This document shows, piece after piece, positions 3,224-32,000 of a stretch of 32,000 nt of DNA. The stretch covers positions 3,750,001 through 3,782,000 of the forward strand of contig CP060262.1 in the NCBI GenBank assembly GCA_022646745.1, read 5' to 3'. Position 1 is the first letter of the stretch. Every line of letters starts with the position of its first letter. This stretch comes from Planctomycetales bacterium. Its GTDB lineage: Bacteria; 4484-113; JAFGCY01. The position numbers and the translations under genes are program-made. A model generated the notes under the pieces. That model did no database searches and was not told the DNA's origin. It saw nothing but the letters and a program-made list of their open reading frames with translations.

Positions 3224-3300
3224 TCCTGCTTCCGCTATTGAAACTGTAGCCAGACTTTCTCAAGGATCCCTCAAGCAGCTTTCCAGATTGCATCAATTCA

Positions 3301-3314: not shown

Positions 3315-3468
3315 GACAAGCAGTAAATTCCGGGGTTGCCAGGCCAACCCTGCTCAATTGACCCGAAGCTGAGATGCTCTTGAGGATTGCTTGATTTGTC
3401 GCGGATAGCCTCTGATCAACGGGCGATTTTTACAATCCACCCGACTACTCAGATTCTGGAGACTGCAA

Positions 3469-4233: not shown

Positions 4234-4264
4234 TCAGTTCTACATCAATGACGAGGAGAGACAC

Positions 4265-5187: not shown

Positions 5188-5319
5188 TTGGCAATCAATT
5201 GCAACTTACTGAAAGTCATTGCTGGAATGTTTCCACTTAATATACAAGGCACGGTGACATTCAGCTTCCTATTTCGGTAACCCATTTCATTGTAACCAAT
5301 TATGTCAAGGAGCATAAGT

Positions 5320-7356: not shown

Positions 7357-7383
7357 CAAATCAGAACTATCTCTGAGCGAGCG

Positions 7384-7418
7384 GGAGGACCAGCAGTTGC
7401 TGGTCCTCCTTTGTTGTT
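7384..7418 (+). terminator. Rho-independent terminator after the FN3 lipoprotein gene
   Basis: An 11-bp perfect GC-rich stem, GGAGGACCAGC (7384-7394) / GCTGGTCCTCC (7399-7409), with loop AGTT. It is followed by TTTGTTGTT (7410-7418) and starts 28 nt after the TAG stop. It lies between convergent genes. Confidence 0.75.
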
Positions 7419-7454
7419 AAGATCTAGTATTCAAAATTCTTAAACAAGTCTTCA

Positions 7455-12277: not shown

Positions 12278-15229
12278 TCAGTTGAATACTGAGTAGTGCA
12301 ATGTCCCACCTGTCCCTACATAAATTAGTCCTGGTTGCCCAGAGACATTGAGTAAAGCCGGGTTTGGATCTGCACCAGTGGCTTCGACAATGACTTCAGC
12401 TGTGTTCCATGCGGACCCTGTTTCATCTAGAGCAGATGCTAGTAGAATCGTCTTGTTAATGTAGAATGCTATGTGGGGCACGCCGGAAATCACAGCCAAG
12501 GAAGGATTGTTGCCTTCAGGGTGAACTTGAATGGATTCTCCCCATGAACTTCCATCCTGGTCCATGGCGCGAACATAAGATACTCTTCCGAATGAAATTG
12601 CTGGATTGCCAGCAACAACATCCAGACTTAGCCTTCCTCTGCCCTCGGTCGTTGCCAATTCAACTGGCTGCGGCCACCATGCAGTACCGTCCTTGTTACT
12701 GGCACTGGTATACATTAGTTTGTACTCAATTGGACCTTCCTGCCATGGCGTACGATAAACCCAGGCAATTGATGGAGAATTGTTAATGTATTCCAGTTGA
12801 TGCTGTATGTCTTGTACATCGTAACCTAGGTTAATACTTCCGCCTGCTTCCCGTCTGTATCGCAAACCATTATCAGGGTGATTGAGAGAAGCAGCTATTG
12901 ATCCATTTATCTCGGCTGCGACAATTCCATCAGGACAGATTGCTTCTGAACCTGTTAGAAAGTCCTGTGGACTGCTCCATGTATAACCATTCTCATCAGA
13001 ACTAAATACGCGTGAAATAGTCCAATACCAATCTGGGGATCCCTTTACTGCACTAAACATAATCTCCGGGGTACCATTGACTACTGCAATTGAAGATCCT
13101 CCCTCGACTCTCCAGCCACTCCCCGTTGGCCAGACTGCCACTGAAGTTGGCACACCCCAACTTATGCCAAATTGGTCCAGGGATCTGGAATACCTAATTG
13201 TCCTTCCATAAACGTATGTGAATGCTGGTTGATCATTCACTAAACATGCATCCCATACTCCATTAGGAATCTCTTCGGAGACTTGCCTGTGGGTCCAGAT
13301 TCCACAGACTATGTCATTAGTAGCTATGTCAGCTGCATCATTGTCATCTTTGGTTCGTACAGCAACTGTGTGTACTCTGCGCTCCATGAAAGTGTGACTT
13401 TGGAGTGGATAGATCCCACTATCATCAGCATTAAACGTCCCGTCATAATCCCAATCCCATTCATAAAGCGTAATTCGACCATCTGGATCATGTGATTCCG
13501 ATGCATCAAACTGTATTGTCAGCGGAGAGCTGCCTTCATGCAGGTTACTGGTCAATGCTGCTTCGGGGGGCAGATTGCCATAGACATTTACAGAAACATT
13601 GCTGGAACCTGTAGCGCCGTAGTTGTCAGTAACAACAAGTTCAACATCGTAGGTACCGGGTGACTGATAGTCATGCCACGGCGCTGGCCCACTGTCAAAC
13701 GTGATTACTCCGTCACCAAAGTCCCAGTCATACTGTGTTATCTGACCGTCCTCATCCGAACTTCCAGTAGCATCAAAAGCTACTCGTAGGATTGACTTGC
13801 CCTCCAGGGGATCAGCAGCAAGCTCAGCTGTAGGGGATCTGTTTGCCAGTATCGAAGTTTCAATAATGCCAATATCTGTACCGTCATTATTGTCTGTCAC
13901 ACGCACAGCCGGCAAGTAGGTCCCACTATCCGAGAATTCGTGGCTGATCATTGCTTCTGTTGATGTCTCATCAGCCTGGAAAGCACCATCAAAATCCCAA
14001 TCCCACTCATATAGAACAATCTCACCATCCAGATCTGAACTCAGGCTGGCATCAAGAACCACTGCAAGTGGCGGTTCACCACTGGTCAAAGAGGCTTCTA
14101 TCACTGCAATTGGCAAACTGTTGTGGAGTTCGACCTGAGTAGTTGCTTTATGTTGAAATCCGTCGTTATCAGTAACCCTGACAGCAGGGTGATACGTTCC
14201 AAAGTTTTCGTAAGTAGTATTTGTCAAGGGCTCAGTTGTTTCGAGGTCCACTTCAAATGTACCATCATGGTCCCAGTCCCATTCATACTTTACGATACTT
14301 CCACCAACGTCCATACTCCCACTAGCATCCAGCTCCACCTGAACTGGAATCACCTCATTGACAGGGGTGGCGACCAGGTTTGCAATTGGCTTGCCAATAC
14401 TTATTGAGAGAATGTTGGAGGCTTCTCCTTCTCCCTTAGTTTTTTCATCAAACGGAACAACGTAGTATTCATACTCACCTTCGATTGCTTGTTCTGTAGT
14501 TGTATATTCGTATACAACAGGTGCATCTGGATGGTCAGGGGGAGGTCGGCTGATAGTTAACAGCATTCCTGACTCCGCAACTAACTCAGCATCCTCTTGG
14601 CCAGGGCCTCGCCGATATAGACGGTATCCGTTTAAACCCTTCTTCCAGTTAATTGCAATAGGGGTTATATCCGCAGCGTTAATTTCTCCATTGCCATCAC
14701 CATCAATACGGGCTAATCGCCAATTGTATGCTCCAGAGTCCGCGGAAGGAGATTCCAATGCTGTATCACCACCAAAGTCAGAAGGATCACCTTTTGGCCA
14801 ATGTCCCACCCCATTTTTATCCTCAGACGAGAAGTACGAAACTCCAGTTCCCAGTTTCAAGCCTAGCGGCGTCAGGTCCGAAATGTTGACTTCACCATTC
14901 TGATCATAATCACCAGCAAGTCGTTCAACCCATGTAAGCTGCACACTGAATTCATTAGACCCAGGCAACAACTTTCCTTCGAGATTAAACACACGGCTTT
15001 CCTCGCCACTGGGAGGTGATGATGGCTCTCTCTCAGGATCCTTGCCTAACCGTTTCAACTCTTGAAGTAGCAGATTTTCCATGGCAACCTGAGGCAAATT
15101 GGTCATATTGTCATTGAGAGGGGTAAGTGAATGATCTGATTGAGTTGGAGAATTGCCTTGGCAGCTAAGCAACCCCAAGGTTGCAAGGAAAAGAATAGTC
15201 GCAATTGCAAAAAACTTCGATTTGATCAT
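12278..15229 (-). CDS. Cell-surface lipoprotein: dockerin-like repeats, four PKD domains, and a C-terminal BNR/Asp-box (sialidase-like beta-propeller) region
   Basis: Signal peptide plus lipobox: MIKSKFFAIATILFLATLGLLSCQG. Dockerin-like pairs are GDYDQNGEVNISDLTPLGL and DGDGNGEINAADITPIAINW. Four ~90-aa PKD-like units read (L)DAS.S.D.DG.I..YEWD(W/F)D.DG.F........H.(Y/F)...GTY...V.VTD(N/D). At least five Asp-box-like motifs are present: SLDQFGISWG, SSDENGYTWS, SNKDGTAWW, AMDQDGSSWG, ALDETGSAWN. Confidence 0.8.
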   Translation of the reverse strand: MIKSKFFAIATILFLATLGLLSCQGNSPTQSDHSLTPLNDNMTNLPQVAMENLLLQELKRLGKDPEREPSSPPSGEESRVFNLEGKLLPGSNEFSVQLTWVERLAGDYDQNGEVNISDLTPLGLKLGTGVSYFSSEDKNGVGHWPKGDPSDFGGDTALESPSADSGAYNWRLARIDGDGNGEINAADITPIAINWKKGLNGYRLYRRGPGQEDAELVAESGMLLTISRPPPDHPDAPVVYEYTTTEQAIEGEYEYYVVPFDEKTKGEGEASNILSISIGKPIANLVATPVNEVIPVQVELDASGSMDVGGSIVKYEWDWDHDGTFEVDLETTEPLTNTTYENFGTYHPAVRVTDNDGFQHKATTQVELHNSLPIAVIEASLTSGEPPLAVVLDASLSSDLDGEIVLYEWDWDFDGAFQADETSTEAMISHEFSDSGTYLPAVRVTDNNDGTDIGIIETSILANRSPTAELAADPLEGKSILRVAFDATGSSDEDGQITQYDWDFGDGVITFDSGPAPWHDYQSPGTYDVELVVTDNYGATGSSNVSVNVYGNLPPEAALTSNLHEGSSPLTIQFDASESHDPDGRITLYEWDWDYDGTFNADDSGIYPLQSHTFMERRVHTVAVRTKDDNDAADIATNDIVCGIWTHRQVSEEIPNGVWDACLVNDQPAFTYVYGRTIRYSRSLDQFGISWGVPTSVAVWPTGSGWRVEGGSSIAVVNGTPEIMFSAVKGSPDWYWTISRVFSSDENGYTWSSPQDFLTGSEAICPDGIVAAEINGSIAASLNHPDNGLRYRREAGGSINLGYDVQDIQHQLEYINNSPSIAWVYRTPWQEGPIEYKLMYTSASNKDGTAWWPQPVELATTEGRGRLSLDVVAGNPAISFGRVSYVRAMDQDGSSWGESIQVHPEGNNPSLAVISGVPHIAFYINKTILLASALDETGSAWNTAEVIVEATGADPNPALLNVSGQPGLIYVGTGGTLHYSVFN

Positions 15230-20308: not shown

Positions 20309-20390
20309 CAAAGACTTCCTAGAGTTCAAACCCTACCTCTAGCCACACACTATCTCCTCCCCTAAAATGATCCGAACCAAGGGAGGCCTA

Positions 20391-23300
20391 ATGACTGGTG
20401 CGGCGGATTCGGTTGATCTGGGGCACAACACCCCGCGAAACGGGATGCTGGCGGTAGTGCGCAACCGCCGGGGGATCATCAGCAATGTGCGGCAGTTCGA
20501 CGCGAACGAGGCTGGCCGCTACCACCTCGTGCAGATCGACTACAAGGACGAGCACCTGCCCACGAATGAGGAGCTGGTCTGGGAGCTTGAGCCGGTCCGC
20601 CAGGTGCTGCAGCCCAACGACCTGCCCAGCATCAAGAGCGAGCCGATGCTGCCTGCGGACTTCGACGCCCTGGTCCGCGCCGCACGCTGGACCGCGATCA
20701 GCCCCTACCTCGACCCCGACGAGTCCGGACCGCTGGATCGCCTGCCTGCCGCTTCGCCCTTTCATGGCGCGGTGGAGATTGAAGACTACCAGCTGGTGCC
20801 CCTGCACAAGGCGCTTGAGATGCCGCGCGTCAACATGATGATTGCGGATGATGTTGGCCTTGGTAAGACCGTTGAAGCCGGCCTGATTCTCTCCGAGCTG
20901 CTGATCCGCCGGCGCATCAACCGAGTGTTGATCCTCACTCCGGCTTCGCTGCGCCTGCAGTGGCGCGATGAACTGGACTCAAAGTTCTCCCTGCCGTTTG
21001 AAGTCGTGGACCGCGACAGCACCCTGAAGCTCAAGCGCTCACTCGGAATTGATGCCAACCCCTGGCGAAGCAACTCCCGCATCATCGCTTCCTACCACTA
21101 CCTGCGCCAGCCGGACATCCTTGAGGAGTTCCTGGCCGCCAGCCAGGTCCGTGAAGGCTCCGCCACTCTGCCCTGGGACATGCTGATCGTTGACGAGATC
21201 CACAACCTGATGCCGGCACCTTTTGGCGAGGACAGCCAGCTCTGCCAGATGCTGAGGCGGATTGCCCCGATGTTCGAGCACCGCCTGTTCCTGACTGCCA
21301 CGCCGCACAACGGCCATACCTATTCCTTCACCGGGCTACTGGAGATCCTCGACCCGGTGCGCTTCAGCCAGAATTCTGAGCTGGGCGAGGCCGCCAGCAA
21401 GCGCGTGCCGCAGGTCGTTGTCAGAAGGTTGAAGCGGGAGATCAACGAACGGACTGATCCTCCAAAGTTCTGCCGGCGCATGCCTCCAACAGCCATCCCA
21501 CTGACCTTCAGCAAGGAAGAACTGCGCCTGATAGATGCCTTTGATGAATTCCGGGCTGCCGTCCGGCAGCTGATGCAGGACTCCACCCGCAAGCGCCGCC
21601 AGGCGGGGAACTTCGCGCTGGAAATCCTCGGAAAGCGCCTGCTCAGCGGACCGATGACATTCCTTGATTCATGGCAGCGCTGCAAGTCCGGTCTGTCTGA
21701 ATCATCGCTGGCCGATGACTCTGAAGTGATCACCGCCGTCAAGGCGGCCAATGAGGAGAACGCTGACGACCGCGAATCGGAGCAGAACGCCTCCATGGCA
21801 GCCGGGGTAGTAGGCTCATGGCTGAAGGCATTTGCAGACGACCTAGCCGCAGAGATCCATGCGATAGACGCCGCCGCCGCCGCGCTCGGCGTGGTAATGG
21901 AAACAAGGATCACAGCGCAGGACCCACAGGCTGATGCCCGGTTCACAGCCATCTGCGAGCTGCTGGACAGCAAGCTGCGTGACGGCAAGGAGTGGAGGAA
22001 GGACGAGCGTATTGTCATCTTCACCGAGTACAAGACCACGATGGACTACCTCCTGCGCAGGCTGCAGGAACGCTTCAAGGGAAATGACGACCGCTTCCTC
22101 CAGCTCTTCGGTGGGATGGATGACAACGAGCGTGAGGAAGTCAAGGAACGATTCAGTGACCTGTCCGATCCTGCCCGCATCCTGATCGGCACAGACGCTG
22201 CCTCGGAAGGTCTAAACCTGCAGGCTACGGCCCGTTACCTGCTGCATTACGACTGCCCCTGGAATCCATCCCGGCTGGAGCAGCGCAATGGCCGCCTCGA
22301 CCGCTACGGTCAGCTGCGTGATGTGTATGTCCATCACTTCGTCAGCGACCAGGCTGCGGACCTCAAGTTCATGGACCTGCTGATCCGCAAGGTGGAGCAG
22401 ATCCGCGAGGACCTTGGTGCGACCGGAGAACTGTTCGATGAGGCGATCCACAAGCGCCTGATTGACGGCGAGTCCGTTGAGGATGTGCAGCTCTTCCTCG
22501 ATGCCAATGTAGAAACCGCACGCAAGGCAGTCGCAATTGAGGCTGACGACAATTTTGTCCTGTCCGATGATCTCAAGCGCAAGCTGCAGGCCCTGAAGGA
22601 TGAACTGGACCTCGACCCCGAAGCGTCGCGCCTGACGCTTGATGCAGCGATGGTGCATGATGCCAACGGCAGCAGGCCGCAGCTTACAGAGCCGGACGAA
22701 AAACTGCTGTTCAATGTTGTCAACCCGAACCTGCCAGGCTGGGCCGAAACGATAGATGAGTCCGTGCGTGTGGGCAGTGAGCGCAAGCTGAAGGGAATAA
22801 TGCCTCGTCTGACGTTCAGCACTGAGTGCTTCAAGGAAGTGCGGGAAGGGCGGGAGATCTTCATTCCGCGAAAGGATGCCGCGCTCCTGCACCTCTCGCA
22901 TCCGATGATGCGCAAGGCGCTGACGACGCTGACCCGCTGCCGCTTCCCCCAATTCGGCCAGGGCCGGGAATATTCCCGCTGGGCTGTACGCCTCGGCGGT
23001 GTGCCGGATGGCAGCGATGCCCTGATCATCCTGCACCTGGAAGAACTGGCGGTCAACGAGCTGCGCGAGACATTCCACCACTGGATCAGCAGCATCTGCA
23101 TTCCCATAAAGGATGGCGAACTGCAGGAAGCCCTGCCGCACTGTCCGGCATGCCTGCTGGGTGACAGCCAGGCTTGCACTGACAACAGTCGCAAGGCAGC
23201 TGCGCAGGGCATGGCTGACGAGTTCGAGCCAGAGCTGAAACTCTTCATCCGCGAACGCCGGGCCAGGCTGGCAGAGATGCTTCAGGCCCAAATGGAAAGC

Positions 23301-23675
23301 GACCTTGACAAGGCCCTGAAGGATGCCGAAGCACGCTACCAGAGCCGCCAGGGTGAGATTTCCCAGCTCATCCAGGAGCGCACCATGAACCGCCTGATGC
23401 AGGAGATTGTCAGAATGCGGCAGCAACAGCAGCAGGGCAATCTTTTCCATAACAAGCAGGACCTGGACGAACTTGAACAGAAGCTGGAACGGCGCGAAGA
23501 GGAACTGCGGCGCATGCGCGAACAGCTGGAGCATTCCCGCGAGCAACTTGCCAAGGAAAGGGAACGCGTCACCAAGCTGCTGATTCCGAAGCGCTACACC
23601 CTTTCCGGCGAAGCACAGGTCTTCCCGGTGGCACTTGAAGTGCGCCTGCCCCTGCAGCCGGGAGGTGCCCTGTGA
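20391..23675 (+). CDS. drmD: SNF2-family helicase/ATPase (DISARM class 1 DrmD-like) with a C-terminal coiled-coil tail
   Basis: GGGAGG lies 6 nt upstream of the ATG at 20391 (the track start at 20367 lacks an RBS). SNF2 motifs: YQLVPLHKAL, motif I DDVGLGKT (20847-20870), LILTPASLRLQWRDEL, motif II DEIH (21192-21203), LTATPHNG, and helicase-C blocks LIGTDAASEGLNLQ and PWNPSRLEQRNGRLDRYGQ. The last ~130 aa are heptad-like and Q/E/R-rich. The drmD label rests on gene order (SNF2, large N6A methylase, helicase), not on a homology search. Confidence 0.8.
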   Translation: MTGAADSVDLGHNTPRNGMLAVVRNRRGIISNVRQFDANEAGRYHLVQIDYKDEHLPTNEELVWELEPVRQVLQPNDLPSIKSEPMLPADFDALVRAARWTAISPYLDPDESGPLDRLPAASPFHGAVEIEDYQLVPLHKALEMPRVNMMIADDVGLGKTVEAGLILSELLIRRRINRVLILTPASLRLQWRDELDSKFSLPFEVVDRDSTLKLKRSLGIDANPWRSNSRIIASYHYLRQPDILEEFLAASQVREGSATLPWDMLIVDEIHNLMPAPFGEDSQLCQMLRRIAPMFEHRLFLTATPHNGHTYSFTGLLEILDPVRFSQNSELGEAASKRVPQVVVRRLKREINERTDPPKFCRRMPPTAIPLTFSKEELRLIDAFDEFRAAVRQLMQDSTRKRRQAGNFALEILGKRLLSGPMTFLDSWQRCKSGLSESSLADDSEVITAVKAANEENADDRESEQNASMAAGVVGSWLKAFADDLAAEIHAIDAAAAALGVVMETRITAQDPQADARFTAICELLDSKLRDGKEWRKDERIVIFTEYKTTMDYLLRRLQERFKGNDDRFLQLFGGMDDNEREEVKERFSDLSDPARILIGTDAASEGLNLQATARYLLHYDCPWNPSRLEQRNGRLDRYGQLRDVYVHHFVSDQAADLKFMDLLIRKVEQIREDLGATGELFDEAIHKRLIDGESVEDVQLFLDANVETARKAVAIEADDNFVLSDDLKRKLQALKDELDLDPEASRLTLDAAMVHDANGSRPQLTEPDEKLLFNVVNPNLPGWAETIDESVRVGSERKLKGIMPRLTFSTECFKEVREGREIFIPRKDAALLHLSHPMMRKALTTLTRCRFPQFGQGREYSRWAVRLGGVPDGSDALIILHLEELAVNELRETFHHWISSICIPIKDGELQEALPHCPACLLGDSQACTDNSRKAAAQGMADEFEPELKLFIRERRARLAEMLQAQMESDLDKALKDAEARYQSRQGEISQLIQERTMNRLMQEIVRMRQQQQQGNLFHNKQDLDELEQKLERREEELRRMREQLEHSREQLAKERERVTKLLIPKRYTLSGEAQVFPVALEVRLPLQPGGAL

Positions 23676-26600
23676 GCCAGCCGATGCATGACTGGTGGGC
23701 CAGCCTGCGCCATGGCGGAATGCTCGTTGACATGAACCGTCTGGTTCTGCTGCTTCCGCAGGCTCTGGAACCTGAGAAGCTGCTGCAATTCCACCGCGAG
23801 GACAAGCTGCGCCGCGAACTGGCTGAATTCCACAGTGACCCGGAGAAGCTGCGCAACCAGCTCGTGCGCTTCATACTGGAGCATATCTGCGGGATCGGCA
23901 CGGATGATGGCAAGTGGCTGGCAGGAACGAACATTGATTCATCCTGGAACAGACATGGACTGGCCGGGGAATCCATAAAACCGCAGTTGCTCTGGCAGCA
24001 TGCTGCATCGGATGCGGTATTCCCGGTGTTCATTGACAGTTCAGGCCGGCGTTTGGGGATTGGCAGGAGCCGCCGCGAATACACGCGGGTGCTGCGTTGG
24101 CTGCGCAGTGGCCGGCAGCAGCTGGCAATCCTGACGAACGGATTCCAGTGGCGGATCATCTTCGCGGGCCTTGACTACGACGCCTGGTGCGAGTGGGAGT
24201 CCTCCGCCTGGTTCAGCGAGGGGCAGCCCAGCGCGGAGCTGGCCGGATTCTGTGCGCTGGTCTCAACACAGCTCTGGCTGCCCGCTGGTGAGGGACAGCC
24301 CAGCCCGCTGGTGGATGCAGTCAATGACAGCCGCAAGGGCCAGGCTGAACTGTCCGCCGTGCTGGGTGAGCGCGTTCGCAAGGCTGCCGAAAAGCTGATC
24401 ATCGCGCATGCCCCGCTGCTCAGCGACCAGTTCCCGCATATCAAGCCTGAGGAAATCTACCGCGCCTCAGTGCGCATGATCATGCGCATCGTGGTGCTGC
24501 TGTTCGCGGAAAGCCGTGAAGGCCTGCTGCCGCGTGACAATGAGATCTACCACAACTCCTACAGTGTGCAGCAGCTGCGCGATGCCCTGCGCAACCGCAG
24601 CGATTACCGGCTGAAGCATTCGACTTCAGCCTGGCCGCGCCTGCTGGCCCTGATGTACATGGTTTACAAGGGATCGCCGCATGAGGCGGTGCCGATCCCG
24701 CAGTATGGCGGGGAACTGTTCCAGCCCGGCAGCAGGGACAGCGCGGACGGACTGCAGAAGGTGCTGCACATCTTTGAGAACGGCTGCTACCAGTCAGATG
24801 TACTGATCACGGATCTGCAGATCCGCGAGATCCTCAACCTGCTGACAATGACGGAAATCAGCATCCGCCAGGGCCGCAGCCGCATGCGCGTGCCTGCGCC
24901 GGTGGACTTCTCCAGCCTGGACAGCGAGTACATCGGCATCCTCTATGAGGGCCTGCTGGACTTTGAGCTGCGCCAGGTCGGCAAAGACCAGCCCATCGTC
25001 TTCCTGGCTGTCGGCAACCAGCCAGCCCTGCCGCTGGAAACCCTGGAAGCGATGGATGACAAGGACATCAGGAACCTGCTGGAGAAGATGAAGGACAAGT
25101 CTTCCTCATCCGACTCTGAGGATGAGGATGCAGACGAGGACAGTGCCAATGAGGGAGAGCAGGACGAGGCAGAGGAAGACGCCGAAGATGAACTTGGGGT
25201 TGAAGCTGCTGCCGAGGATGAGGAATCTGACGACGACCAGCGCGCAACGTTGAGGCAAAGAGCGGAGGAATGGGCGCGCAAGGCAGTGATCGCGGCAAGT
25301 CTGGTCAAGAAGACAAAGAGCAAGAAGCAGGATGCCCAGGCTCAGTACGAACGTGATGTTGCCAATAAAGCCAAGGCACTGATTACAGCAGTGCTGCTGC
25401 CAGGTCAGTGGTACCTCGTGCGCTGGGGAGGAACCCGTAAGGGCAGTGGCACTTTCTACACCCGGCCCCAGCTGGCGATCCCGACCGCGCACCGCACGCT
25501 CAGGCCGCTGGCCTACGACCCGCCGACTGGCAGCGACGGGCAGCCTGATACCAGGGCAGCCGCCGCCCTATGGACGCCGAAGCTGCCGGAGCAGATCCTG
25601 GCGCTGAAGGTCTGCGACCCGGCCTGCGGATCAGGCTCTTTCCCGCTGGCAGCGATGCGCTTCCTCACCAACGCTCTGTTCGAGTCACTGATCTTCCATA
25701 AGCGGATTGACGAGCATGCGGACCACTCAGTCCTGCAGCTTATCGAGGGCAGCACGGAGCAGGCCGATGCCGGCAGTGAGCGCATCCCTGTTCCCATGAC
25801 AGATGACAACTTCGAGCAGCGGACCAAGGCCGTGCTGAAGCGCTATATCGTGGAGCGCTGCATCTACGGCGTGGACCTCGACCCGCTTGCCGTCGAACTC
25901 TGCCGCCTGAGCCTCTGGATCGAAACCCTGGACCGCAGCCTGCCGATGACCTTCCTCAACCACAAAATCAAGTGTGGCAACAGTCTCGTCGGTGCCTGGT
26001 TTGACCAGTTTGCGCATTACCCGGTGATGGCCTGGGAACGCGAGGCTGGCGACACCAGCCATACCAACGGGGTGAACTACGCGCCCAAGGTGATGACGAA
26101 GCAGATCAATGAAATCAAGAAGCAGGTCAAGGCACAGATCATCGGCATCATAGACGACCGCCTGCAACTCAGCGGAGTTGACCTGCAACAGGCCCAGCAG
26201 AGCCATGCCGATGCAATGCGGGTGCTCAATGAAATTCACGGGATAGGCATCAATGACGCGCAGAAGCGAACGGAGAAGTATGAAGAGCTGCTGGAAGAAC
26301 CCGATTACATCAGGCTGAAGGAAAGCTTCGATCTCTGGTGCGCCATCTGGTTCTGGCCACTCAGCCGCATCTGCGATGCTCCATTGCCGACGCCTTTTGC
26401 AAAAGGTGAGATTGACGACGAGACGATTAAGCAAGTGAGAGACCTTGCAGCTTTCTTCCGCTTTTTCCACTGGGAGCTGGAATTCCCGGATGTATTCAAT
26501 GCTGATAGCTCAGGTTTTGATGCCATGCTGGGCAACCCGCCCTGGGACATTGCCAAGCCAAACAGCAAGGAGTGGTTTTCCGCGCAGGACCCACTGTACC

Positions 26601-29020
26601 GTACCTATGGCAAGCAGGAAGCACTGGCCAAGCAGCGGGCCATGTTCTCCACGCCGCGAGGCATGGGAGTCGAGGGAGACTGGCTGGCTTACTGCGACTA
26701 CTTCAAGGCCATGAGCAACTGGGTGAAGTACTCCGGCTTCCCCTTTGGCAACCGTGAATCCGAGAATTCATCCGGATCGCGTAGCCATGACTTCAGCCTC
26801 GGAACTGGTGGTAAGCACAGCTTTGCCAATTCCGTTGAGCGACACGAACTGTGGCGCAAGAAGAGCCTGGAGTCGCGGGGATTCGCAGATACGGAGCATG
26901 TCTTCCGGCACCAGGGCAGTGGGGACATCAACCTCTACAAGACTTTCCTGGAACAGGCGCATGCCTTGCTCAGGCCGAATGGACGTATGGGCTTCATCGT
27001 ACCCAGCGGGGTATATTCCGACTTCGGCACGATTGACCTGCGCCGCCTGTTCATAGAGCATTGCCAGTGGGAATGGCTGTTCGGATTCGAGAACCGAGAG
27101 GGTATATTCGACATCCACCGCAGCTTCAAGTTCAACCCGCTGGTGATCCAGAAGGGTGGTGAAACCCAGGCAGTGCGCACGGCCTTCATGCGCCGCGACA
27201 TCTCAGACTGGGAGAATGGCGAGGACTTCGAAACAGCCTATCCGCGTGAGCAAGTGCAGCAGTTCAGCCCCAACAGCCTGGCAATCCTGGAGATTCAGTC
27301 CGATAGGGACCTGGAGATCCTCACGAAGATTTACAGCAATTCAGTGCTGCTTGGCGACCAGGGGCCGGACGGCTGGGGCATCAAGTACGCAACTGAATTC
27401 CACATGACGAATGACTCCAGGCTCTTCCCGCCCAGGCCGAAATGGGAGGAGTGGGGTTACATCCCGGATGAGTACAGCCGCTGGGTCAAGGGACCCTGGC
27501 GCTCGGTCGTTGAACTCTGGCAGCAACTCGGGGTTGACCCGGCCCGGCCAGTTCCGCTTGATGCGGCCTGCCAGCAGGCTATAGAGGCAGGCATTGCCAG
27601 CGGAGAAGTGGAGAGAACAGGGGAAATCAACCACAGAGGCACAGAGGGCACAGAGGATTCGGAAAACAGCAACCAGGCCAGGCGGCTGCGCATCGCCCAG
27701 CCACCCTACGACCGCCTGCCCATCCCGCGTGCTGATATCCCCGAGGGCATCATCCTCAGCCGTGACGGCCAACACTTCATACACGAAGACGATATTCCGG
27801 TTGTCACCTTTACGGAAGCAAACGGCAAGGTGCTGACAATCTCCGAGGGCAAGGGTAAGAGCAAGAAGACGCGAGAAGTGAGAGGCAAGGCGATTGCACT
27901 GCCATTGTATCAAGGGGCAATGATTTGGTTGATGGATTATTCATTCAATGGTTACGCAAGCGGTGCAGGGAACAGAACTAGTTGGGAAAATGTGCCTTGG
28001 AGTTCAAAGCAGATAAATGCTCAGTTCATGTTGCCATCAGTATTAATGGATGGAGAATCATCAATTCATCGCTGGTCCCTTCGTGATATCTCCAATGCCA
28101 CAAATCAAAGATCATTCATTTCTGCTTTACTACCTGATTATCCTGCTGGCAACTCTGTACCTCTTCTGAAACCAAGCCGAGGTGAAAGGTCAGAAGTATT
28201 GCTTGCTGGGACAGCTGCAACTTTCGTGTTTGACTTTGCCGTTCGCCTGAGAATGACTGGCATGCACTTGAACTACTTCATACTGGAAGAGCTGCCGCTG
28301 CTTGTTCCAGATTGCAGTGAATATTTTGTAATCTTGACTGCCAAGCTCAACTTGGACAACAGATTGTTTGCAGGTTCCTGGCTGAAGAATAATACAGGAA
28401 ACGAAGTTAGCTCAGTGAATGCGCTCTCGAGGCATGAGCGAGTCCGCCTGTTCGCAATAATGGAAGCGTTGATGATGGGATTTTGGGACTTGTCTGCAAC
28501 TGATGCATGCCGTGTAGTCGCAGGTTGTGATGTGCCCTTAAGAGATATGGCGGGATTAGCAGCAAAGCTCGACGGAACAGGCTTCTGGCGCGTTGACAAG
28601 GACAAGCATCCCGAGCATCGCCTGACTGTGCTCAGCCTCGTGGCCTTCCACGACCTGATGCAGCATGTGGAAGCCTGCGGCGGGGACCGGGAAGCCGGTA
28701 TCGCCTCCTTCATGGCCCAGAATGACGGCGAGGGCTGGATGCTGCCGGAAAGCCTGCGCCTGGCGGACTACGCCCTCGGGCATGACGAGCGCGCAAAGGA
28801 GCACCAGCCGGTGCGTGAGTGCTTCGGCCCGCGCTTCTACGACTGGCAACTGGCACAGACCCCCGAGGAGAGCTGGAAGGAATGCCACCTGCACGTCCGC
28901 AACCTGCTGGGCAAACAGGGCTACCAGGACCTGCTGGATGAACTGGCGGGCAAGAAAGTGGAGAAGAAGTCGGACAAGCCCGCTGGCAACGGCGGGACGC
29001 TGTTCGGGGAAGATAATTAA
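23672..29020 (+). CDS. drmMI: Very large (1782 aa) gamma-class N6-adenine DNA methyltransferase, Eco57I/PglX-like (DISARM class 1 DrmMI-like)
   Basis: The GTG start overlaps the SNF2 stop (GTGA, 23672-23675), with GGAGG 6 nt upstream. The AdoMet motif I is VCDPACGSGSFPLAA (~25610-25650). The catalytic motif IV is NPPW (26534-26545, in GNPPWDIAKP), and motif I precedes motif IV as in gamma-class enzymes. The N-terminal ~600 aa contain an ILTNGFQWRII block like the N-terminal modules of PglX / type IIG enzymes. The C-terminal ~450 aa contain LPLYQGAMI and RDISNATNQRSFISALLP blocks. The long antisense ORFs here are high-GC shadows. Confidence 0.8.
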   Translation: MSQPMHDWWASLRHGGMLVDMNRLVLLLPQALEPEKLLQFHREDKLRRELAEFHSDPEKLRNQLVRFILEHICGIGTDDGKWLAGTNIDSSWNRHGLAGESIKPQLLWQHAASDAVFPVFIDSSGRRLGIGRSRREYTRVLRWLRSGRQQLAILTNGFQWRIIFAGLDYDAWCEWESSAWFSEGQPSAELAGFCALVSTQLWLPAGEGQPSPLVDAVNDSRKGQAELSAVLGERVRKAAEKLIIAHAPLLSDQFPHIKPEEIYRASVRMIMRIVVLLFAESREGLLPRDNEIYHNSYSVQQLRDALRNRSDYRLKHSTSAWPRLLALMYMVYKGSPHEAVPIPQYGGELFQPGSRDSADGLQKVLHIFENGCYQSDVLITDLQIREILNLLTMTEISIRQGRSRMRVPAPVDFSSLDSEYIGILYEGLLDFELRQVGKDQPIVFLAVGNQPALPLETLEAMDDKDIRNLLEKMKDKSSSSDSEDEDADEDSANEGEQDEAEEDAEDELGVEAAAEDEESDDDQRATLRQRAEEWARKAVIAASLVKKTKSKKQDAQAQYERDVANKAKALITAVLLPGQWYLVRWGGTRKGSGTFYTRPQLAIPTAHRTLRPLAYDPPTGSDGQPDTRAAAALWTPKLPEQILALKVCDPACGSGSFPLAAMRFLTNALFESLIFHKRIDEHADHSVLQLIEGSTEQADAGSERIPVPMTDDNFEQRTKAVLKRYIVERCIYGVDLDPLAVELCRLSLWIETLDRSLPMTFLNHKIKCGNSLVGAWFDQFAHYPVMAWEREAGDTSHTNGVNYAPKVMTKQINEIKKQVKAQIIGIIDDRLQLSGVDLQQAQQSHADAMRVLNEIHGIGINDAQKRTEKYEELLEEPDYIRLKESFDLWCAIWFWPLSRICDAPLPTPFAKGEIDDETIKQVRDLAAFFRFFHWELEFPDVFNADSSGFDAMLGNPPWDIAKPNSKEWFSAQDPLYRTYGKQEALAKQRAMFSTPRGMGVEGDWLAYCDYFKAMSNWVKYSGFPFGNRESENSSGSRSHDFSLGTGGKHSFANSVERHELWRKKSLESRGFADTEHVFRHQGSGDINLYKTFLEQAHALLRPNGRMGFIVPSGVYSDFGTIDLRRLFIEHCQWEWLFGFENREGIFDIHRSFKFNPLVIQKGGETQAVRTAFMRRDISDWENGEDFETAYPREQVQQFSPNSLAILEIQSDRDLEILTKIYSNSVLLGDQGPDGWGIKYATEFHMTNDSRLFPPRPKWEEWGYIPDEYSRWVKGPWRSVVELWQQLGVDPARPVPLDAACQQAIEAGIASGEVERTGEINHRGTEGTEDSENSNQARRLRIAQPPYDRLPIPRADIPEGIILSRDGQHFIHEDDIPVVTFTEANGKVLTISEGKGKSKKTREVRGKAIALPLYQGAMIWLMDYSFNGYASGAGNRTSWENVPWSSKQINAQFMLPSVLMDGESSIHRWSLRDISNATNQRSFISALLPDYPAGNSVPLLKPSRGERSEVLLAGTAATFVFDFAVRLRMTGMHLNYFILEELPLLVPDCSEYFVILTAKLNLDNRLFAGSWLKNNTGNEVSSVNALSRHERVRLFAIMEALMMGFWDLSATDACRVVAGCDVPLRDMAGLAAKLDGTGFWRVDKDKHPEHRLTVLSLVAFHDLMQHVEACGGDREAGIASFMAQNDGEGWMLPESLRLADYALGHDERAKEHQPVRECFGPRFYDWQLAQTPEESWKECHLHVRNLLGKQGYQDLLDELAGKKVEKKSDKPAGNGGTLFGEDN
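27629..27656 (+). repeat. Solo copy of the CACAGAGG-triplet repeat, in frame inside the methyltransferase (encodes NHRGTEGTE)
   Basis: AACCACAGAGGCACAGAGGGCACAGAGG. It matches the repeat at 29019-29046 at 26 of 28 positions and is in the same orientation. Confidence 0.85.
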
Positions 29021-29046
29021 CCACAGAGCCACAGAGGTCACAGAGG
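29019..29046 (+). repeat. Left inverted repeat, AACCACAGAGCCACAGAGGTCACAGAGG (three tandem CACAGAG(C/G) octamers)
   Basis: Read directly. Its first two bases are the last two bases of the methylase TAA stop. Confidence 0.9.
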
Positions 29047-29055
29047 AAAACGAAT

Positions 29056-29433
29056 ATGGAAGGAAACCGGGATCCGTTGACAGAACAGATAATCGGGGCT
29101 GCCATTGAAGTGCACCGTGCTGTCGGCCCCGGTTTACTTGAGTCAATCTATGAAGAGTGCATGTGCCGCGAACTTGCCATACAGGAACTGTCATTCCAGC
29201 GGCAGGTGCCAGTCCCGCTGATTTACAAGGGTGTACGCCTCGAAAACCCATTGCGGATGGACCTGGTAGTGGAAGACCAGGTTGTGCTTGAACTGAAAGC
29301 CGTTGACAAACTGTCCGGCCTGCATGAGGCTCAGCTATTGAGTTATCTGAAACTGGCTGGCAAGAGACGGGGCTTGTTGATGAATTTCAACTCCGAGAGA
29401 CTTGTGGATGGAGTAAAGAGGATGGTCCTTTGA
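29056..29433 (+). CDS. GxxExxY family protein (small PD-(D/E)XK nuclease-fold protein)
   Basis: 125 aa, with GAGG 9 nt upstream of the ATG. It contains the family signature G-L-L-E-S-I-Y (in VGPGLLESIYEECM) and a D...E-x-K core (RMDLVVEDQVVLELKAV). Confidence 0.85.
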   Translation: MEGNRDPLTEQIIGAAIEVHRAVGPGLLESIYEECMCRELAIQELSFQRQVPVPLIYKGVRLENPLRMDLVVEDQVVLELKAVDKLSGLHEAQLLSYLKLAGKRRGLLMNFNSERLVDGVKRMVL

Positions 29434-29454
29434 TAATGACGCTGAATTTGAATT

Positions 29455-29481
29455 CTCTGTGCCCTCTGTGGCTCTGTGGTT
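29455..29481 (-). repeat. Right inverted repeat (reverse complement AACCACAGAGCCACAGAGGGCACAGAG)
   Basis: The plus strand reads CTCTGTGCCCTCTGTGGCTCTGTGGTT. Its reverse complement differs from the left repeat at one position (G vs T). Confidence 0.9.
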
Positions 29482-29515
29482 GGAATTCTTCTCATGCAAT
29501 GTTGGCGGTGCTCAA

Positions 29516-32000
29516 ATGGCACTGAACCCGATCAGCTACACAGAGAAGATCGTCCGCAGTTTCCTGCGTTACCAGCTCTCCGCGTATCCCTTCACTGACG
29601 AGAAGCTGTATGCGCAGATGCGCGGCTTGCTGAACCTTGACAACGAACGCCGCACGCCGCTGCTGAAGGGTCCGTACATCACCCTGTCTCGCAGTTTCCG
29701 CGAAGGTGCAACCGTCAAGCAGATGATTGACGAGGGGATCTTCCATCCGCACATGGCGCATGTCACGCAGGGGATCACGAACCTGCGCGGACACCAGGAG
29801 CAGGCCATCCGCGCGGTGCATGCGGGCAAGGCAACGCTGGTATCCACGGGTACCGGCTCCGGCAAGACGGAATGCTTCCTGTACCCGATCATCAGCAAGT
29901 GCCTGCAGCTCAACCAGGCTGGCGAGAAACCGGGCATCAGCGCGGTGATCGTGTACCCGATGAATGCACTGGCCGAGGACCAGCTGGACCGCCTGCGCGG
30001 CCTGCTGGCTGGCAGCGGCGTGAGTTTCGGGATGTATGTCGGCAAGACGCCAGAGCATGAGCGCGAAGTAAGCGGCAAGCGCATGAAGGCGGGCAGCACC
30101 CGCGCGGACTACCTTGCTGCACTGGAGGAAGCCAGGAAGAAGGGCAAGGGCGACACGGTGCATCCGGTTGAGGAAATCTGCAGCCGAGAGATGATGCGCA
30201 CGCCCGGCAGCCAGCCGCGCATCCTGCTGACGAACGTGAAGCAGCTGGAACTGCTGCTGACTCGGCAGAAGGACATCGAGCTGTTTGACAATGCCCGGCT
30301 GGATTTCCTCGTATTCGACGAGGCACATACCTTCACCGGGATTAACGGCGCGGAGACGGCCTGCCTGATCCGCCGCCTGATGAAGTACTGCGACGGGGTG
30401 ACAGCGCACACGACCTGCATTGCCACTTCCGCAACCATCGTGGACAAGAAGAACCCCCATGCCGCAGAGCACTTTGCTGAGCGATTCTTCGGTGTACCGG
30501 CAAGTGAGGTTGCCTGCATCCATGAGGACTATGAGGCGGATGCCTGGCAGGATGAGCGCCGCAAGCCGGCGCAGCCGCAGGCGAACCTGTCCGAGCTTCT
30601 GAAGCGGACACTGACAGCAGTAGACCATGCTGATGCGGACACTGAAGTGCGCGAGGTGTACCGGCAGCTGACTGGCTGGGAACTGGCCGCAGGGGATTGG
30701 AGCGAGGCACTGTTTGATGCGCTTACAGCGAACGAACTTGCTTACCAGATTCGCCAGGCGATAGACAGGCCTCGTGCCCTGGAGAGCCTGCTGAACGAAC
30801 TCTCCGCCCGTGCTGGACACGATGTCTGCGAAGAGGAGCTGCTGATATACCTGGCCCTGGGAGCAGCAGCCTTCAAGGTTGACAGGCCCGTGTTCAGGCC
30901 GGTGGTGCATGCATTCATTCGAGGAGTGCCCGGCGCGGTTGTCAGCTTCCCTCCCGGCAGTGATGAGCCAAAGCTATATCTGAGCAGCGAAGACCAGATA
31001 AAGGAATTCGAGGGCCAGGGCAATATCTGGCGGCCACCGGTGTACGCCTGCACAACCTGCGGCCAGCATTACATGGTGAGCTGGCTGAAGGACTTCCAGT
31101 TCATCGGAGCAAGGCCGGATGGCGGCCAGCTGACTGAAGGTGGAAGCGGCTACTGGGAAGCCCAGACGGAAGAAACGGGTGGGCAGCGCGTTGTGCTCCT
31201 GGATCGCGTGATCGGCATGGATGATGACGAAGAACTCGGCGAGCATAAGCGCATGCACGAGCTTCACTTCTGCCGGCATTGCGGGTCAGCCTATGAAACA
31301 GAATCAGGCAGTTGCCAGGCCTGCTCGGCGACAGGCAGCAGGGTGAAACTGTATGCGCTGCTCAGCTCCAGGGACAACCCCGGCTACCTGAACTACTGCG
31401 TATCCTGCGGTTCCAAGGGTCGGCCCCAGACGGGCCGCTACCGTGAACCGATCCGCCCTGTGCGCGCGGTCAATGTCTCAGACGTGCATGTGCTGGCGCA
31501 GGATATGGTGCAGAACGCCCAGCGCAAGCGCCTGCTGCTGTTTGCTGACAACCGCCAGGATGCAGCATTCCAGAACGGCTGGATGAAGGACCATGCACGG
31601 CGCTTCCGCCTGCGCGGACTGATGAGCGAGGAACTGAAGAAGGGCGCAATCTCGGTCGGTGACATGGAGTCACGGCTGAATGACCTGCTGGCAGCTGACG
31701 AGGTGCTGTCGCGGGCACTGATACCGGAAGTCTGGCGGGCAGAACCCAGTGCAGGTGCAGCACATGACAACCAGAGGCGCTACTTCCTGCGCATCCAGGT
31801 GCTGCGTGAACTGACAATGGCAGCCAACCAGCAGATCGGCCTCGAACCATGGGGCCGGATGCGGGTGGACTACATCGGCCTGGACAGCAGCGGGCAGTTC
31901 TTCCAGAAGTGGGCCAACAAGCTTGGAATCCCTCCGGAGGACCTGCAGGGTGGCGTCGCAGCGGTGCTGGACCAGCGCCGCCGGCAGAGAATCCTGCACG
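29516..32000 (+). CDS. drmA: DEAH-box superfamily 2 helicase, N-terminal 828 codons. The gene continues past the window end. DISARM DrmA-like.
   Basis: Hand translation from the ATG at 29516 (MALNPISYTEKIVRSFLRYQLSAYPFTDEKL...) stays open to position 32000. It is not in the ORF track because it has no stop in the window. Motifs: Q-like GHQEQAI, motif I GTGSGKT (29849-29869), Ia VYPMNALAEDQ, motif II DEAH (30317-30328), motif III TSAT (30425-30436), and a later block LLLFADNRQDAAF. The 472-aa minus-strand ORF 29492..30910 is an antisense shadow. The drmA label comes from gene context only. Confidence 0.8.
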   Translation, partial: MALNPISYTEKIVRSFLRYQLSAYPFTDEKLYAQMRGLLNLDNERRTPLLKGPYITLSRSFREGATVKQMIDEGIFHPHMAHVTQGITNLRGHQEQAIRAVHAGKATLVSTGTGSGKTECFLYPIISKCLQLNQAGEKPGISAVIVYPMNALAEDQLDRLRGLLAGSGVSFGMYVGKTPEHEREVSGKRMKAGSTRADYLAALEEARKKGKGDTVHPVEEICSREMMRTPGSQPRILLTNVKQLELLLTRQKDIELFDNARLDFLVFDEAHTFTGINGAETACLIRRLMKYCDGVTAHTTCIATSATIVDKKNPHAAEHFAERFFGVPASEVACIHEDYEADAWQDERRKPAQPQANLSELLKRTLTAVDHADADTEVREVYRQLTGWELAAGDWSEALFDALTANELAYQIRQAIDRPRALESLLNELSARAGHDVCEEELLIYLALGAAAFKVDRPVFRPVVHAFIRGVPGAVVSFPPGSDEPKLYLSSEDQIKEFEGQGNIWRPPVYACTTCGQHYMVSWLKDFQFIGARPDGGQLTEGGSGYWEAQTEETGGQRVVLLDRVIGMDDDEELGEHKRMHELHFCRHCGSAYETESGSCQACSATGSRVKLYALLSSRDNPGYLNYCVSCGSKGRPQTGRYREPIRPVRAVNVSDVHVLAQDMVQNAQRKRLLLFADNRQDAAFQNGWMKDHARRFRLRGLMSEELKKGAISVGDMESRLNDLLAADEVLSRALIPEVWRAEPSAGAAHDNQRRYFLRIQVLRELTMAANQQIGLEPWGRMRVDYIGLDSSGQFFQKWANKLGIPPEDLQGGVAAVLDQRRRQRILH

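What the first reader, a model, noticed from the sequence alone, without database searches (positions are those of the whole stretch)
27629..27656. Terminal repeat of the GxxExxY cassette also occurs as a solo copy absorbed in frame into the methyltransferase
AACCACAGAGGCACAGAGGGCACAGAGG is translated as N-H-R-G-T-E-G-T-E within ...EVERTGEINHRGTEGTEDSENSNQ.... It matches, at 26 of 28 positions and in the same orientation, the repeat that overlaps the methylase stop codon 1.36 kb downstream (29019-29046). Even the following bases are related (GGATTCGGAAAAC vs GGAAAAC).

A repeat normally found at the ends of a small intergenic element has therefore become a hydrophilic linker in a coding region. 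This suggests that the last ~450 codons (27657-29020) were joined to the methylase through an event involving this element. It also suggests that the direct repeat pair 27629 / 29019 could mediate deletion or exchange of the C-terminal module.
Basis: seen in the sequence. Interest (0 to 1): 0.6.

Follow-up and report, generated by a model that had tools for sequence, protein, structure and literature searches.

The report
One-armed hairpin repeat relic inside methylase
A 28-base repeat that normally forms the arms of small hairpin elements sits in frame in a flexible loop of a phage-defence DNA methylase; it is the leftover of a tolerated selfish insertion, not the seam where a new protein module was attached.

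Summary
Bases 27629-27656 match the cassette's left arm (29019-29046) at 26 of 28 positions. A profile of 15 other arms from this genome finds the site at E = 3.6e-8.

The last ~450 codons were not attached through this element. 116 of 117 full-length homologues lack NHRGTEGTE but carry the same C-terminal region without a break.

The repeat lies in a 19-codon lineage-specific insertion (27626-27682) in a linker that varies from 6 to 161 residues. AlphaFold gives residues 1320-1327 pLDDT below 50.

The closest homologue is 73.5% identical and comes from a syntenic metagenomic locus. At the same site it has a 56-codon insertion with both arms, which folds as a hairpin (z = -6.2). The window copy therefore looks like a one-armed relic, 111 nt shorter.

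Hairpins with other 7-base units occupy this linker in three further homologues. One encloses a whole 23S-IVS-type gene.

A module exchange did occur, at 27939-28564. That stretch is the core of the target-recognition domain, and its boundaries are not at the repeats.

The closest known analogue is in-frame Rickettsia palindromic elements. Earlier notes of this scan describe the same element class in other genomes.

The parts
23672..29020 (+). 1782-aa DISARM-type (DrmMI / type IIG-like) N6-adenine DNA methyltransferase, the host gene of the embedded repeat
   Evidence: ORF, with DPACGSGSF and NPPW motifs read. Pfam Eco57I 1e-21. PADLOC REase_MTase_IIG E = 0 and DrmMI 1.3e-123.
27626..27682 (+). 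19-codon (57-nt) lineage-specific in-frame insertion, residues I1319-R1337 (INHRGTEGTEDSENSNQAR)
   Evidence: Alignment with the 30-residue linker class (…SGEVARTEW|RVRCAQ…). Absent from 116 of 117 homologues. The sister locus has 168 nt at the same site.
27629..27656 (+). Embedded solo arm: AACC followed by three CACAGAG units at 8- and 9-nt spacing
   Evidence: Sequence. nhmmer E = 3.6e-8. No inverted partner within 110 nt. Core identical at 27 of 27 nt to the sister locus. Residues 1320-1327 have pLDDT below 50.
27939..28564 (+). Low-GC core of the target-recognition domain, exchanged relative to the sister locus
   Evidence: GC 0.44-0.48 against about 0.60. GC3 0.43 against 0.73-0.83. No blastn match to L005. 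Amino-acid identity 22-32% against 87-96% in the flanks. TRD fold matches.
29019..29046 (+). Left arm of the GxxExxY cassette; it overlaps the methylase stop codon
   Evidence: Same arrangement in the sister locus.
29056..29433 (+). 125-aa GxxExxY / PD-(D/E)XK (PDDEXK_3) cassette gene
   Evidence: Pfam PF13366 1.3e-41. TIGR04256 1.7e-43.
29455..29481 (-). Right arm of the cassette, inverted; it is also complementary to the embedded arm
   Evidence: Identical at 32 of 32 nt to the sister locus. Duplex with the embedded arm -77.1 kcal/mol, against -59.9 for the cassette's own left arm.
20367..23675 (+). DrmD-like SNF2 helicase, upstream gene of the operon
   Evidence: PADLOC DrmD 5.3e-201.
29516..31999 (+). 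Start of the DEAD/DEAH helicase gene. The sister-locus orthologue has 1806 aa and a DUF1998/MZB domain.
   Evidence: Pfam DEAD 3.3e-22. Start codon placed by comparison with L005.

Best explanation
The 28-nt repeat is a degraded, one-armed copy of a small hairpin-forming repeat element. The arms of this element are tandem CACAGAG units. A copy entered the methylase gene before the window locus and its closest known relative diverged.

It entered a length-variable, hydrophilic loop near the start of the target-recognition region. It survived because it adds a whole number of codons without a stop, and because it codes for a disordered surface peptide.

The sister locus still has both arms. The window copy later lost 111 nt, including the right arm, and is now a 19-codon insertion. 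It is read through as protein and probably does nothing for the enzyme.

Shown:
- membership of the repeat family;
- absence from homologues;
- the full hairpin at the same site in the sister locus;
- the low-confidence loop in the predicted structure;
- the ancestry of the C-terminal region.

Inferred:
- the order of events, with the two-armed form first and the deletion afterwards;
- neutrality of the insertion;
- the way the element arrived, whether by transposition-like insertion or by templated copying.
For: Family membership: nhmmer E = 3.6e-8 with a profile that excludes the site. There are 24 exact double-unit hits in the genome and 0 for the reversed control.

Insertion status: 116 of 117 full-length homologues and all 26 aligned cluster representatives lack the segment. 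Linker lengths run from 6 to 161 residues.

Sister locus L005: same gene order and the same GxxExxY cassette. At the same codon it has 168 nt with arms 13351-13376 and 13466-13491, 88% complementary. It folds at -67.7 kcal/mol, z = -6.18. The window is 111 nt shorter and has no local inverted repeat.

Structure: residues 1320-1327 have pLDDT below 50, between well-modelled parts.

Typical form of the family: 83 of 126 exact-match arms in other genomes have an inverted partner. The median loop is 72 nt, and the control found 0.

Precedent in the same genome: a solo arm sits in frame in dnaE, inside an insertion of about 120 aa that five relatives of the same family lack.

Recurrence at this linker: hairpin inserts with other 7-nt units occur in P0203, P0168 and P0180. 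The last has a PF05635 gene in its loop (1.6e-38). These homologues lie in separate clades.
Against: Only two sequences carry CACAGAG at this site, so the direction of change is set by parsimony alone. The change could be a loss in the window or a gain in the sister.

About half of the strong arms in this genome have no partner, so a solo arm could have arrived as such.

The arm is better conserved than neutral drift predicts:
- The embedded core is identical at 27 of 27 nt, while third-codon positions agree at 57% and synonymous codons at 61%. The chance of 9 of 9 identical codons is about 0.012.
- The cassette's right arm is identical at 32 of 32 nt, against about 67% in the adjoining spacer.
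This points to constraint, or to copy correction between arms, rather than plain junk.

No target-site duplication and no transposase were identified.
Confidence: 0.75

Rival explanations
1. The embedded arm is kept by selection as a working signal. In one version it acts in RNA, as an alternative pairing partner for the cassette's right arm 1.8 kb downstream, for example making an RNase III-type processing stem that cuts the methylase message. In another it acts in DNA, as a partner for deletion (with 29019) or inversion (with 29455) that switches the methylase off.
For: The arm core is identical at 27 of 27 nt between two loci that are 76% identical in flanking DNA (P about 0.012). The predicted duplex of the embedded arm with the right arm is -77.1 kcal/mol, stronger than -59.9 for the cassette's own pair; shuffles average -29.7. 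RNase III excision of hairpin-flanked IVS elements is established for Coxiella 23S rRNA (PMC4990558).
Against: In the sister locus the embedded left arm has its own right arm 89 nt away, and that would win over any 1.8-kb pairing. Both known loci have the same arrangement, and no deleted or inverted variant is on record. High arm identity can come from copy correction among the many arms. A deletion would give a truncated protein lacking the recognition core.
Confidence: 0.1
2. The arm was not inserted as a mobile unit. It was written in place by a repeat-generating or copy-correcting process, such as templated repair or gene conversion from other arms seeded by local microhomology. This process would act repeatedly on this hairpin-prone linker.
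For: Different 7-nt units occupy the same linker in separate clades. In L137 the array runs straight out of the conserved L-G-V codons, CTGGGAGTGGCGAGTGG. The window's ancestral codons GAGAGAACAGGGG just upstream resemble degenerate units seen outside other arms. No target-site duplication or transposase was found.
Against: The exact 27-nt arm occurs in at least 119 stretches from many phyla and about 45 times in this genome. That needs copying of a pre-existing sequence and does not fit local invention. The sister's insert has the size and shape of a typical free-standing family member.
Confidence: 0.12
3. One reading: the element mediated the fusion of a formerly separate C-terminal module (27657-29020) to the methylase.
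For: The repeat sits at a length-variable point of the protein, and a second copy marks the gene's end.
Against: Homologues without any repeat have the same contiguous architecture: 36 of them with only a 6-residue linker, and the full-length 1600-2100-aa hits. TRD-like structure is matched on both sides of the linker. DNA on both sides of the arm has the same 76-81% identity to the sister locus.
Confidence: 0.02
4. The similarity is a coincidence of ancestral coding sequence, a G-T-E repeat.
For: The 9-nt spacing of two units keeps the reading frame.
Against: The 8-nt then 9-nt spacing and the AACC leader are the signature of the arm family. E = 3.6e-8. 116 of 117 homologues lack the segment.
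Confidence: 0.01

Closest known systems
Rickettsia palindromic elements (RPE; Ogata et al. 2000, as summarised in PMC10969869)
   Same: Small palindromic repeat elements, present in many copies, that are inserted in frame into unrelated protein-coding genes. They are read through as extra peptide segments compatible with the fold. Here this applies to the methylase, and to dnaE in the same genome.
   Different: No sequence relation was tested or is expected. The arms here are tandem arrays of a 7-nt unit. The same arm sequence occurs in many phyla, not in one genus. Larger relatives carry small genes. The window copy has only one arm.
23S rRNA intervening sequences with an S23p / PF05635 ORF (Coxiella burnetii IVS, PMC4990558)
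   Same: A small gene, or nothing, enclosed by complementary arms that form a long stem. The element is inserted into a host transcript without destroying the host function. One methylase homologue (P0180) carries a PF05635 gene in such a hairpin at this very linker.
   Different: IVS elements sit in rRNA and are cut out by RNase III. An insertion in a protein-coding frame cannot be removed in that way and has to be translated. The cassette gene in this window is GxxExxY/PDDEXK_3, not PF05635. RNase III processing was not tested here.
Prokaryotic MITEs and intragenic ERIC/BOX-type repeats (review PMC10969869)
   Same: Short non-autonomous repeats with terminal inverted repeats, mostly intergenic, that occasionally make in-frame fusions with host ORFs.
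   Different: No target-site duplication and no partner transposase were identified. The arms are internally repetitive.
Intergenic heptamer direct repeats (TAACTGA repeats of Beggiatoaceae, Cyanobacteria and Bacteroidetes; PMC4679880)
   Same: Tandem 7-nt units spread across distant phyla, often just upstream of start codons and occasionally inside ORFs.
   Different: Those are direct arrays with almost no inverted copies. The CACAGAG arrays mostly come as inverted pairs that form hairpins.
Swapping of target-recognition domains in type I (HsdS), type IIG (MmeI family) and BREX PglX methyltransferases (my own knowledge of the field; structures 5hr4, 8q56, 9ewz and 7bst matched)
   Same: A recognition-domain core of foreign composition and incongruent ancestry lies between conserved flanks (27939-28564).
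   Different: This concerns the neighbouring tract and not the repeat. The repeats are not its boundaries.

Membership tests
CACAGAG-armed hairpin repeat family of this genome | AACC leader followed by three CACAGAG units at 8-10-nt spacing | tested here: met
   nhmmer 35.2 bits, E = 3.6e-8, profile positions 2-34, with the site excluded from the profile.
CACAGAG-armed hairpin repeat family of this genome | An inverted partner arm close by, so that the unit folds as a hairpin | tested here: not met
   No inverted repeat in 27590-27700. The local fold is no better than shuffles, z = +1.74. The nearest complementary arm is 1.8 kb away. The feature is met at the same site in sister locus L005. 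About half of the strong arms in this genome are also solo.
RPE-like in-frame palindromic insertions | The element is repeated in the genome and inserted in a protein-coding gene whose frame stays open | tested here: met
   About 45 arm sites in the genome. The 1782-aa ORF is intact with its catalytic motifs.
RPE-like in-frame palindromic insertions | The insertion is absent from homologues of the host protein | tested here: met
   116 of 117 homologues lack it. The only carrier is the syntenic sister.
RPE-like in-frame palindromic insertions | The inserted peptide lies in a surface or loop position compatible with the fold | tested here: met
   AlphaFold2 gives pLDDT below 50 for residues 1320-1327, with flanks at 84-97. 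This is a prediction only.
RPE-like in-frame palindromic insertions | Sequence homology to one of the described RPE families | not tested
   No RPE sequences were on hand, and none is expected to match. The claim is one of analogy, not membership.
MITE | Terminal inverted repeats plus a target-site duplication | tested here: inconclusive
   Inverted arms are present in L005. By eye there is no convincing duplicated target at the L005 or cassette borders.
MITE | A parent transposase that recognises the ends | not tested
   No candidate was sought beyond the window.
23S-IVS-type cassette | Arms form a stem that RNase III cleaves | not testable with these tools
   Only predicted duplex energies are available.
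DISARM class 1 methylase (DrmMI) | N6-adenine methyltransferase that matches DrmMI models and lies next to DrmD | tested here: met
   PADLOC DrmMI 1.3e-123. The best model, however, is REase_MTase_IIG at E = 0. DrmD 5.3e-201 lies upstream.
DISARM class 1 methylase (DrmMI) | A complete system with DrmA, DrmB (DUF1998) and DrmC (PLD) | tested here: inconclusive
   The helicase runs off the window. The sister orthologue has DEAD, Helicase_C and MZB/DUF1998 domains. The best PADLOC hits for the window's part are DruE models. No PLD gene was seen.

The most novel reading that the evidence does not exclude
The loop at the start of the recognition domain of DISARM-type methylases may be a preferred landing site for a cross-phylum class of heptamer-armed hairpin and cassette elements. 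This class would include IVS-type four-helix-bundle cassettes. In that case the arms are kept at the nucleotide level because they act as RNA-processing or recombination signals, which tune expression of the defence methylase or help exchange its recognition core.
Probability: 0.12. Interest if true: 0.75.

Novelty: new variant of a known kind. Interest (0 to 1): 0.45.

Why it matters
This is a clean, dated example of selfish hairpin DNA becoming protein sequence in a bacterial defence gene. The full element survives in one lineage and a one-armed relic in the other.

Together with the other homologues, it marks one loop of these large methylases as tolerant of insertions of 19 to more than 150 residues. 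That is useful for domain mapping and for engineering. It also shows that long low-complexity stretches in such proteins can be repeat-element debris and need not be functional linkers.

It corrects a tempting misreading. The real modular exchange in this gene is a swap of the recognition-domain core between conserved motifs, and the repeats are not involved in it.

The element class itself, with arms of tandem 7-nt units and the same 27-nt arm in many phyla, was not described in the literature I could search. Earlier notes of this scan, however, report it in other genomes.

Tried and rejected
- Orthologues in 59 related genomes: none found with this query. The island is accessory, so no close comparison within the lineage was possible.
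- Metagenome scan for the embedded-arm junction, meant to find population variants or the predicted deletion: 0 hits.
- Rfam, permissive threshold, over 27400-29700: nothing.
- Foldseek against the PDB: no match at E <= 0.001. The second-look aligner then gave the TRD matches.
- Link between the arms and GxxExxY genes: rejected. Arms flank two of the five GxxExxY genes in this genome. Only 3 of 119 loci from other phyla have such a gene within 120 nt of an arm.
- Conserved cargo gene downstream of solo arms: most have no credible ORF. The recurring 'MFVRLI' reading looks like another repeat module and not a gene.
- Embedded arms in long ORFs of other phyla: 11 candidates. The four tested gave no Pfam support at the arm; in L105 the DUF885 match starts after the arm. 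They were treated as spurious high-GC frames.
- L135 hairpin by folding energy: z = -1.1, not significant in GC-rich sequence. The case rests on the inverted repeats.
- L136/P0170 as a hairpin insert: not confirmed.
- L139/P0175: shows only a one-sided array.
- Extending the embedded copy upstream into GGAGAGAACAGGGG: rejected as part of the insertion, because homologues without repeats encode the matching GEVxRT residues.
Full report
**Observation**

Bases 27629-27656 read AACCACAGAGGCACAGAGGGCACAGAGG. They lie in frame in the 1782-aa ORF 23672-29020 as N-H-R-G-T-E-G-T-E, residues 1320-1328.

The sequence at 29019-29046 differs at two of 28 positions and overlaps the TAA stop codon. An inverted copy lies at 29455-29481, after the 125-aa GxxExxY/PDDEXK_3 gene at 29056-29433.

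The genome is one contig of 4.11 Mb with 61% GC. It holds 24 exact double-unit matches, against none for the reversed control.

I built a profile from 15 other arms, leaving this site out. It recovers the site at 35.2 bits and E = 3.6e-8, among the six best of 45 hits.

**What the repeat family is**

The arms are not a private feature of the GxxExxY cassette.
- The genome has five GxxExxY genes, and CACAGAG arms flank two of them.
- Strong arms come as convergent inverted pairs 60-600 nt apart, with or without a gene between them. About half have no partner within 2.5 kb.
- The exact 27-nt arm (AACCACAGAG, S, CACAGAG, NN, CACAGAG) occurs in at least 119 stretches of the species-representative genome collection. 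These come from Cyanobacteria, Planctomycetota, Myxococcota, Verrucomicrobiota, Chloroflexota and others, including archaeal bins.
- In those stretches, 83 of 126 arms have an inverted partner downstream, with a median loop of 72 nt. A reversed-arm control found none.
- Only 3 of the 119 loci have a GxxExxY gene next to the arm.
- Rfam has nothing for the region.

**Is the coding copy an insertion?**

The methylase has no counterpart in 59 related genomes, so the comparison uses database homologues.

A full-library search with residues 1150-1782 gave 2689 hits. The full-length ones (1600-2000 aa) align on both sides of the repeat, with a break around it.

Among 117 full-length homologues, the linker between the conserved …ELWxxLGV and RxRCAQPPYD motifs is distributed as follows:

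| Linker length | Number of homologues |
|---|---|
| 6 residues | 36 |
| 21-34 residues | 25 |
| 48 residues, a conserved EDWLFD…HGHLLKPGDV form | 47 |
| Assorted other lengths, up to 161 residues | the rest |

The window's linker is the 30-residue form (…DAGIASGEVARTEW|RVRCAQ…) with 19 extra residues, I1319 to R1337. That is 27626-27682. 116 of the 117 lack NHRGTEGTE, and so do all 26 cluster representatives aligned.

**The sister locus**

The one homologue that has the segment is P0153, 73.5% identical overall. Its contig, L005, has the same gene order: DrmD-like SNF2 helicase, methylase, GxxExxY gene, then helicase. It has the same cassette, with the left arm overlapping the stop codon. DNA identity to the window is 76-81%.

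At the same codon P0153 carries 56 extra residues. These are, in order:
- the same left arm, core identical at 27 of 27 nt;
- a degenerate second left arm;
- a spacer;
- a right arm translated as SSVNSVALW.

The arms at 13351-13376 and 13466-13491 are 88% complementary. The element folds as one long hairpin at -67.7 kcal/mol, z = -6.18.

The window has 111 nt less at this point, no local inverted repeat and no unusual fold. The size and shape of the sister's insert are those of a typical free-standing family member.

The simplest history is this. A two-armed hairpin element entered the linker before the two loci diverged. The window lineage then lost the loop and the right arm. The direction is inferred, not shown.

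**Where it sits in the protein**

An AlphaFold2 model of residues 1150-1782 was built on 106 aligned homologues. It has mean pLDDT 85 and pTM 0.81. Residues 1320-1327 fall below pLDDT 50, between well-modelled parts.

The second-look structural alignment matches model residues about 97-493 (protein 1246-1642) to the DNA-recognition domains of these enzymes:

| Enzyme | Z-score |
|---|---|
| M.BseCI | 13.3 |
| Salmonella PglX | 11.6 |
| E. coli BrxX | 9.9 |
| MmeI | 8.1 |
| M.TaqI | 7.8 |

The match spans both sides of the linker. The repeat therefore lies in an internal loop of the recognition region, not at a joint between a methylase and an added module.

The C-terminal 450 codons are ancestral, because every homologue has them contiguous.

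A module exchange is visible, but it lies elsewhere. Bases 27939-28564 (residues about 1425-1627) have 44-48% GC, against about 60% around them. They have no nucleotide match to L005, although DNA on both sides matches at 79-81%. In this tract the two proteins are 22-32% identical, against 87-96% in the flanks.

For this tract P0153 ranks 220th among the fetched homologues. The best matches, at 44-45%, are P0007 and P0161. For the flanks P0153 ranks first.

The tract is the core of the recognition-domain fold. It lies between the family-wide motifs ALPLYQG and FWRVDKDKxPE. It shows the same drop in third-position GC in five other loci.

Its borders are about 280 nt and 450 nt away from the repeats. 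A deletion between 27629 and 29019 would give a 1348-aa protein without the recognition core. No data were available to look for such variants.

**Recurrence at the same loop**

Other homologues carry in-frame inserts at this linker built from other 7-nt units.
- P0203/L135: GGGAACN arms, 32 nt, 75% complementary.
- P0168/L138: GTGGCCA arms, 34 nt, 74% complementary.
- P0180/L137: 40-nt arms, 80% complementary, 409 nt apart. They enclose a complete 23S-IVS-type four-helix-bundle ORF in another frame (PF05635, 1.6e-38). The methylase frame stays open through all 498 nt.
- P0175/L139: a one-sided array only.
- P0170/L136: a possible hairpin that could not be confirmed.

On a tree of the methylase body these carriers fall in at least four separate places (no support values were examined).

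In the window's own genome a solo CACAGAG arm also lies in frame in dnaE. It sits within an insertion of about 120 residues that five relatives of the same family lack.

**An open point**

The arms are better conserved than their surroundings.
- The embedded core is identical at 27 of 27 nt. Third-codon positions agree at 57% and synonymous codons at 61%, so the chance of nine identical codons is about 0.012.
- The cassette's right arm is identical at 32 of 32 nt, while the adjoining spacer agrees at about two thirds.
- The embedded arm is predicted to pair with that right arm more strongly than the cassette's own left arm does: -77.1 against -59.9 kcal/mol.

This could reflect copy correction among arms, or a function in RNA or DNA. 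I rate a functional role at about 0.1. In the sister locus the embedded arm has its own partner 89 nt away, and no rearranged form is on record.

**Comparison with what is known**

In-frame palindromic repeat insertions are known from Rickettsia (RPE) and, more rarely, from ERIC and other MITE-like repeats (PMC10969869). Hairpin-flanked elements that carry a PF05635 ORF, and that RNase III excises, are known from 23S rRNA (PMC4990558). Tandem heptamers shared across phyla are known as TAACTGA repeats (PMC4679880).

The present case behaves like an RPE. It belongs, however, to a different element class, with arms made of tandem 7-nt units, and I did not find that class described in the searchable literature. 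Earlier notes of this scan report the same class in other genomes, including one-armed in-frame copies. I reached the reading from my own tests before I consulted those notes.

**Verdict**

The feature is a tolerated relic of a hairpin repeat insertion: a new variant of a known kind, of moderate interest.

Noticed in passing
window 27939-28564 (also L005 13771-14417): The core of the methylase's target-recognition domain is compositionally foreign (GC3 0.43 against 0.73-0.83). It is only 22-32% identical to the sister protein, while the flanks are 87-96% identical. The sister ranks 220th for this tract. The same GC3 dip appears in five other homologous loci. This looks like a recognition-core swap between the conserved ALPLYQG and FWRVDKDKxPE motifs.
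   Followed up: partly
L001 3632-7909 (-), genome 3625631-3629908; arm at L001 5331-5354: The DNA polymerase III alpha gene (dnaE) of this genome carries three long low-complexity in-frame insertions made of recurring repeat modules. One includes a solo CACAGAG arm, translated here as STTEAQRTQS. About 120 residues of the first insertion are absent from DnaE in five relatives of the same family.
   Followed up: partly
L008-L126 (genome contigs matches): The exact 27-nt arm AACCACAGAG-S-CACAGAG-NN-CACAGAG is present in at least 119 stretches from very distant phyla, including archaeal bins. It mostly forms short hairpins with a median loop of 72 nt, and is rarely next to a GxxExxY gene. I cannot explain why one arm sequence is shared so widely.
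   Followed up: partly
L137 5687-6235 (+), inside the methylase gene 1501-7770: A complete PF05635 (23S rRNA intervening-sequence protein) ORF with 40-nt heptamer arms sits inside the methylase linker of homologue P0180. The 2089-aa methylase frame stays open across all 498 inserted bases.
   Followed up: partly
L136 6963-7685; L139 549-1004; L005 14906-15283; window 29056-29433: Homologous DISARM-like operons often carry a small unrelated gene at a gene junction. DUF3800 or GxxExxY lies between methylase and helicase, and PF05635 lies between the SNF2 helicase and the methylase.
   Followed up: no
window 29018-29024 and L005 14867-14873: In both loci the methylase stop codon TAA is the TAA of the arm's TTAACC leader. 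The cassette therefore seems to supply the stop, and may have replaced the original end of the gene.
   Followed up: no
genome 380915, 394397, 1849327, 2190873, 2197572 (10-nt-spaced arm subfamily): Arms of the ACACAGAGATCCACAGAGTTCCACAGAG type are followed by a conserved ATGTT(T/C)GTCAGGCTCATT and then by GCTCATT-type units. This is probably another repeat module and not a gene. The complementary AATGAGC units follow the arm in dnaE.
   Followed up: no
window 20362 / L005 6085: Similarity between the window and the sister contig starts abruptly at the DrmD-like gene. Upstream, L005 has a serine recombinase and a DUF2924 gene instead. The defence island therefore sits in different surroundings in the two genomes.
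   Followed up: no
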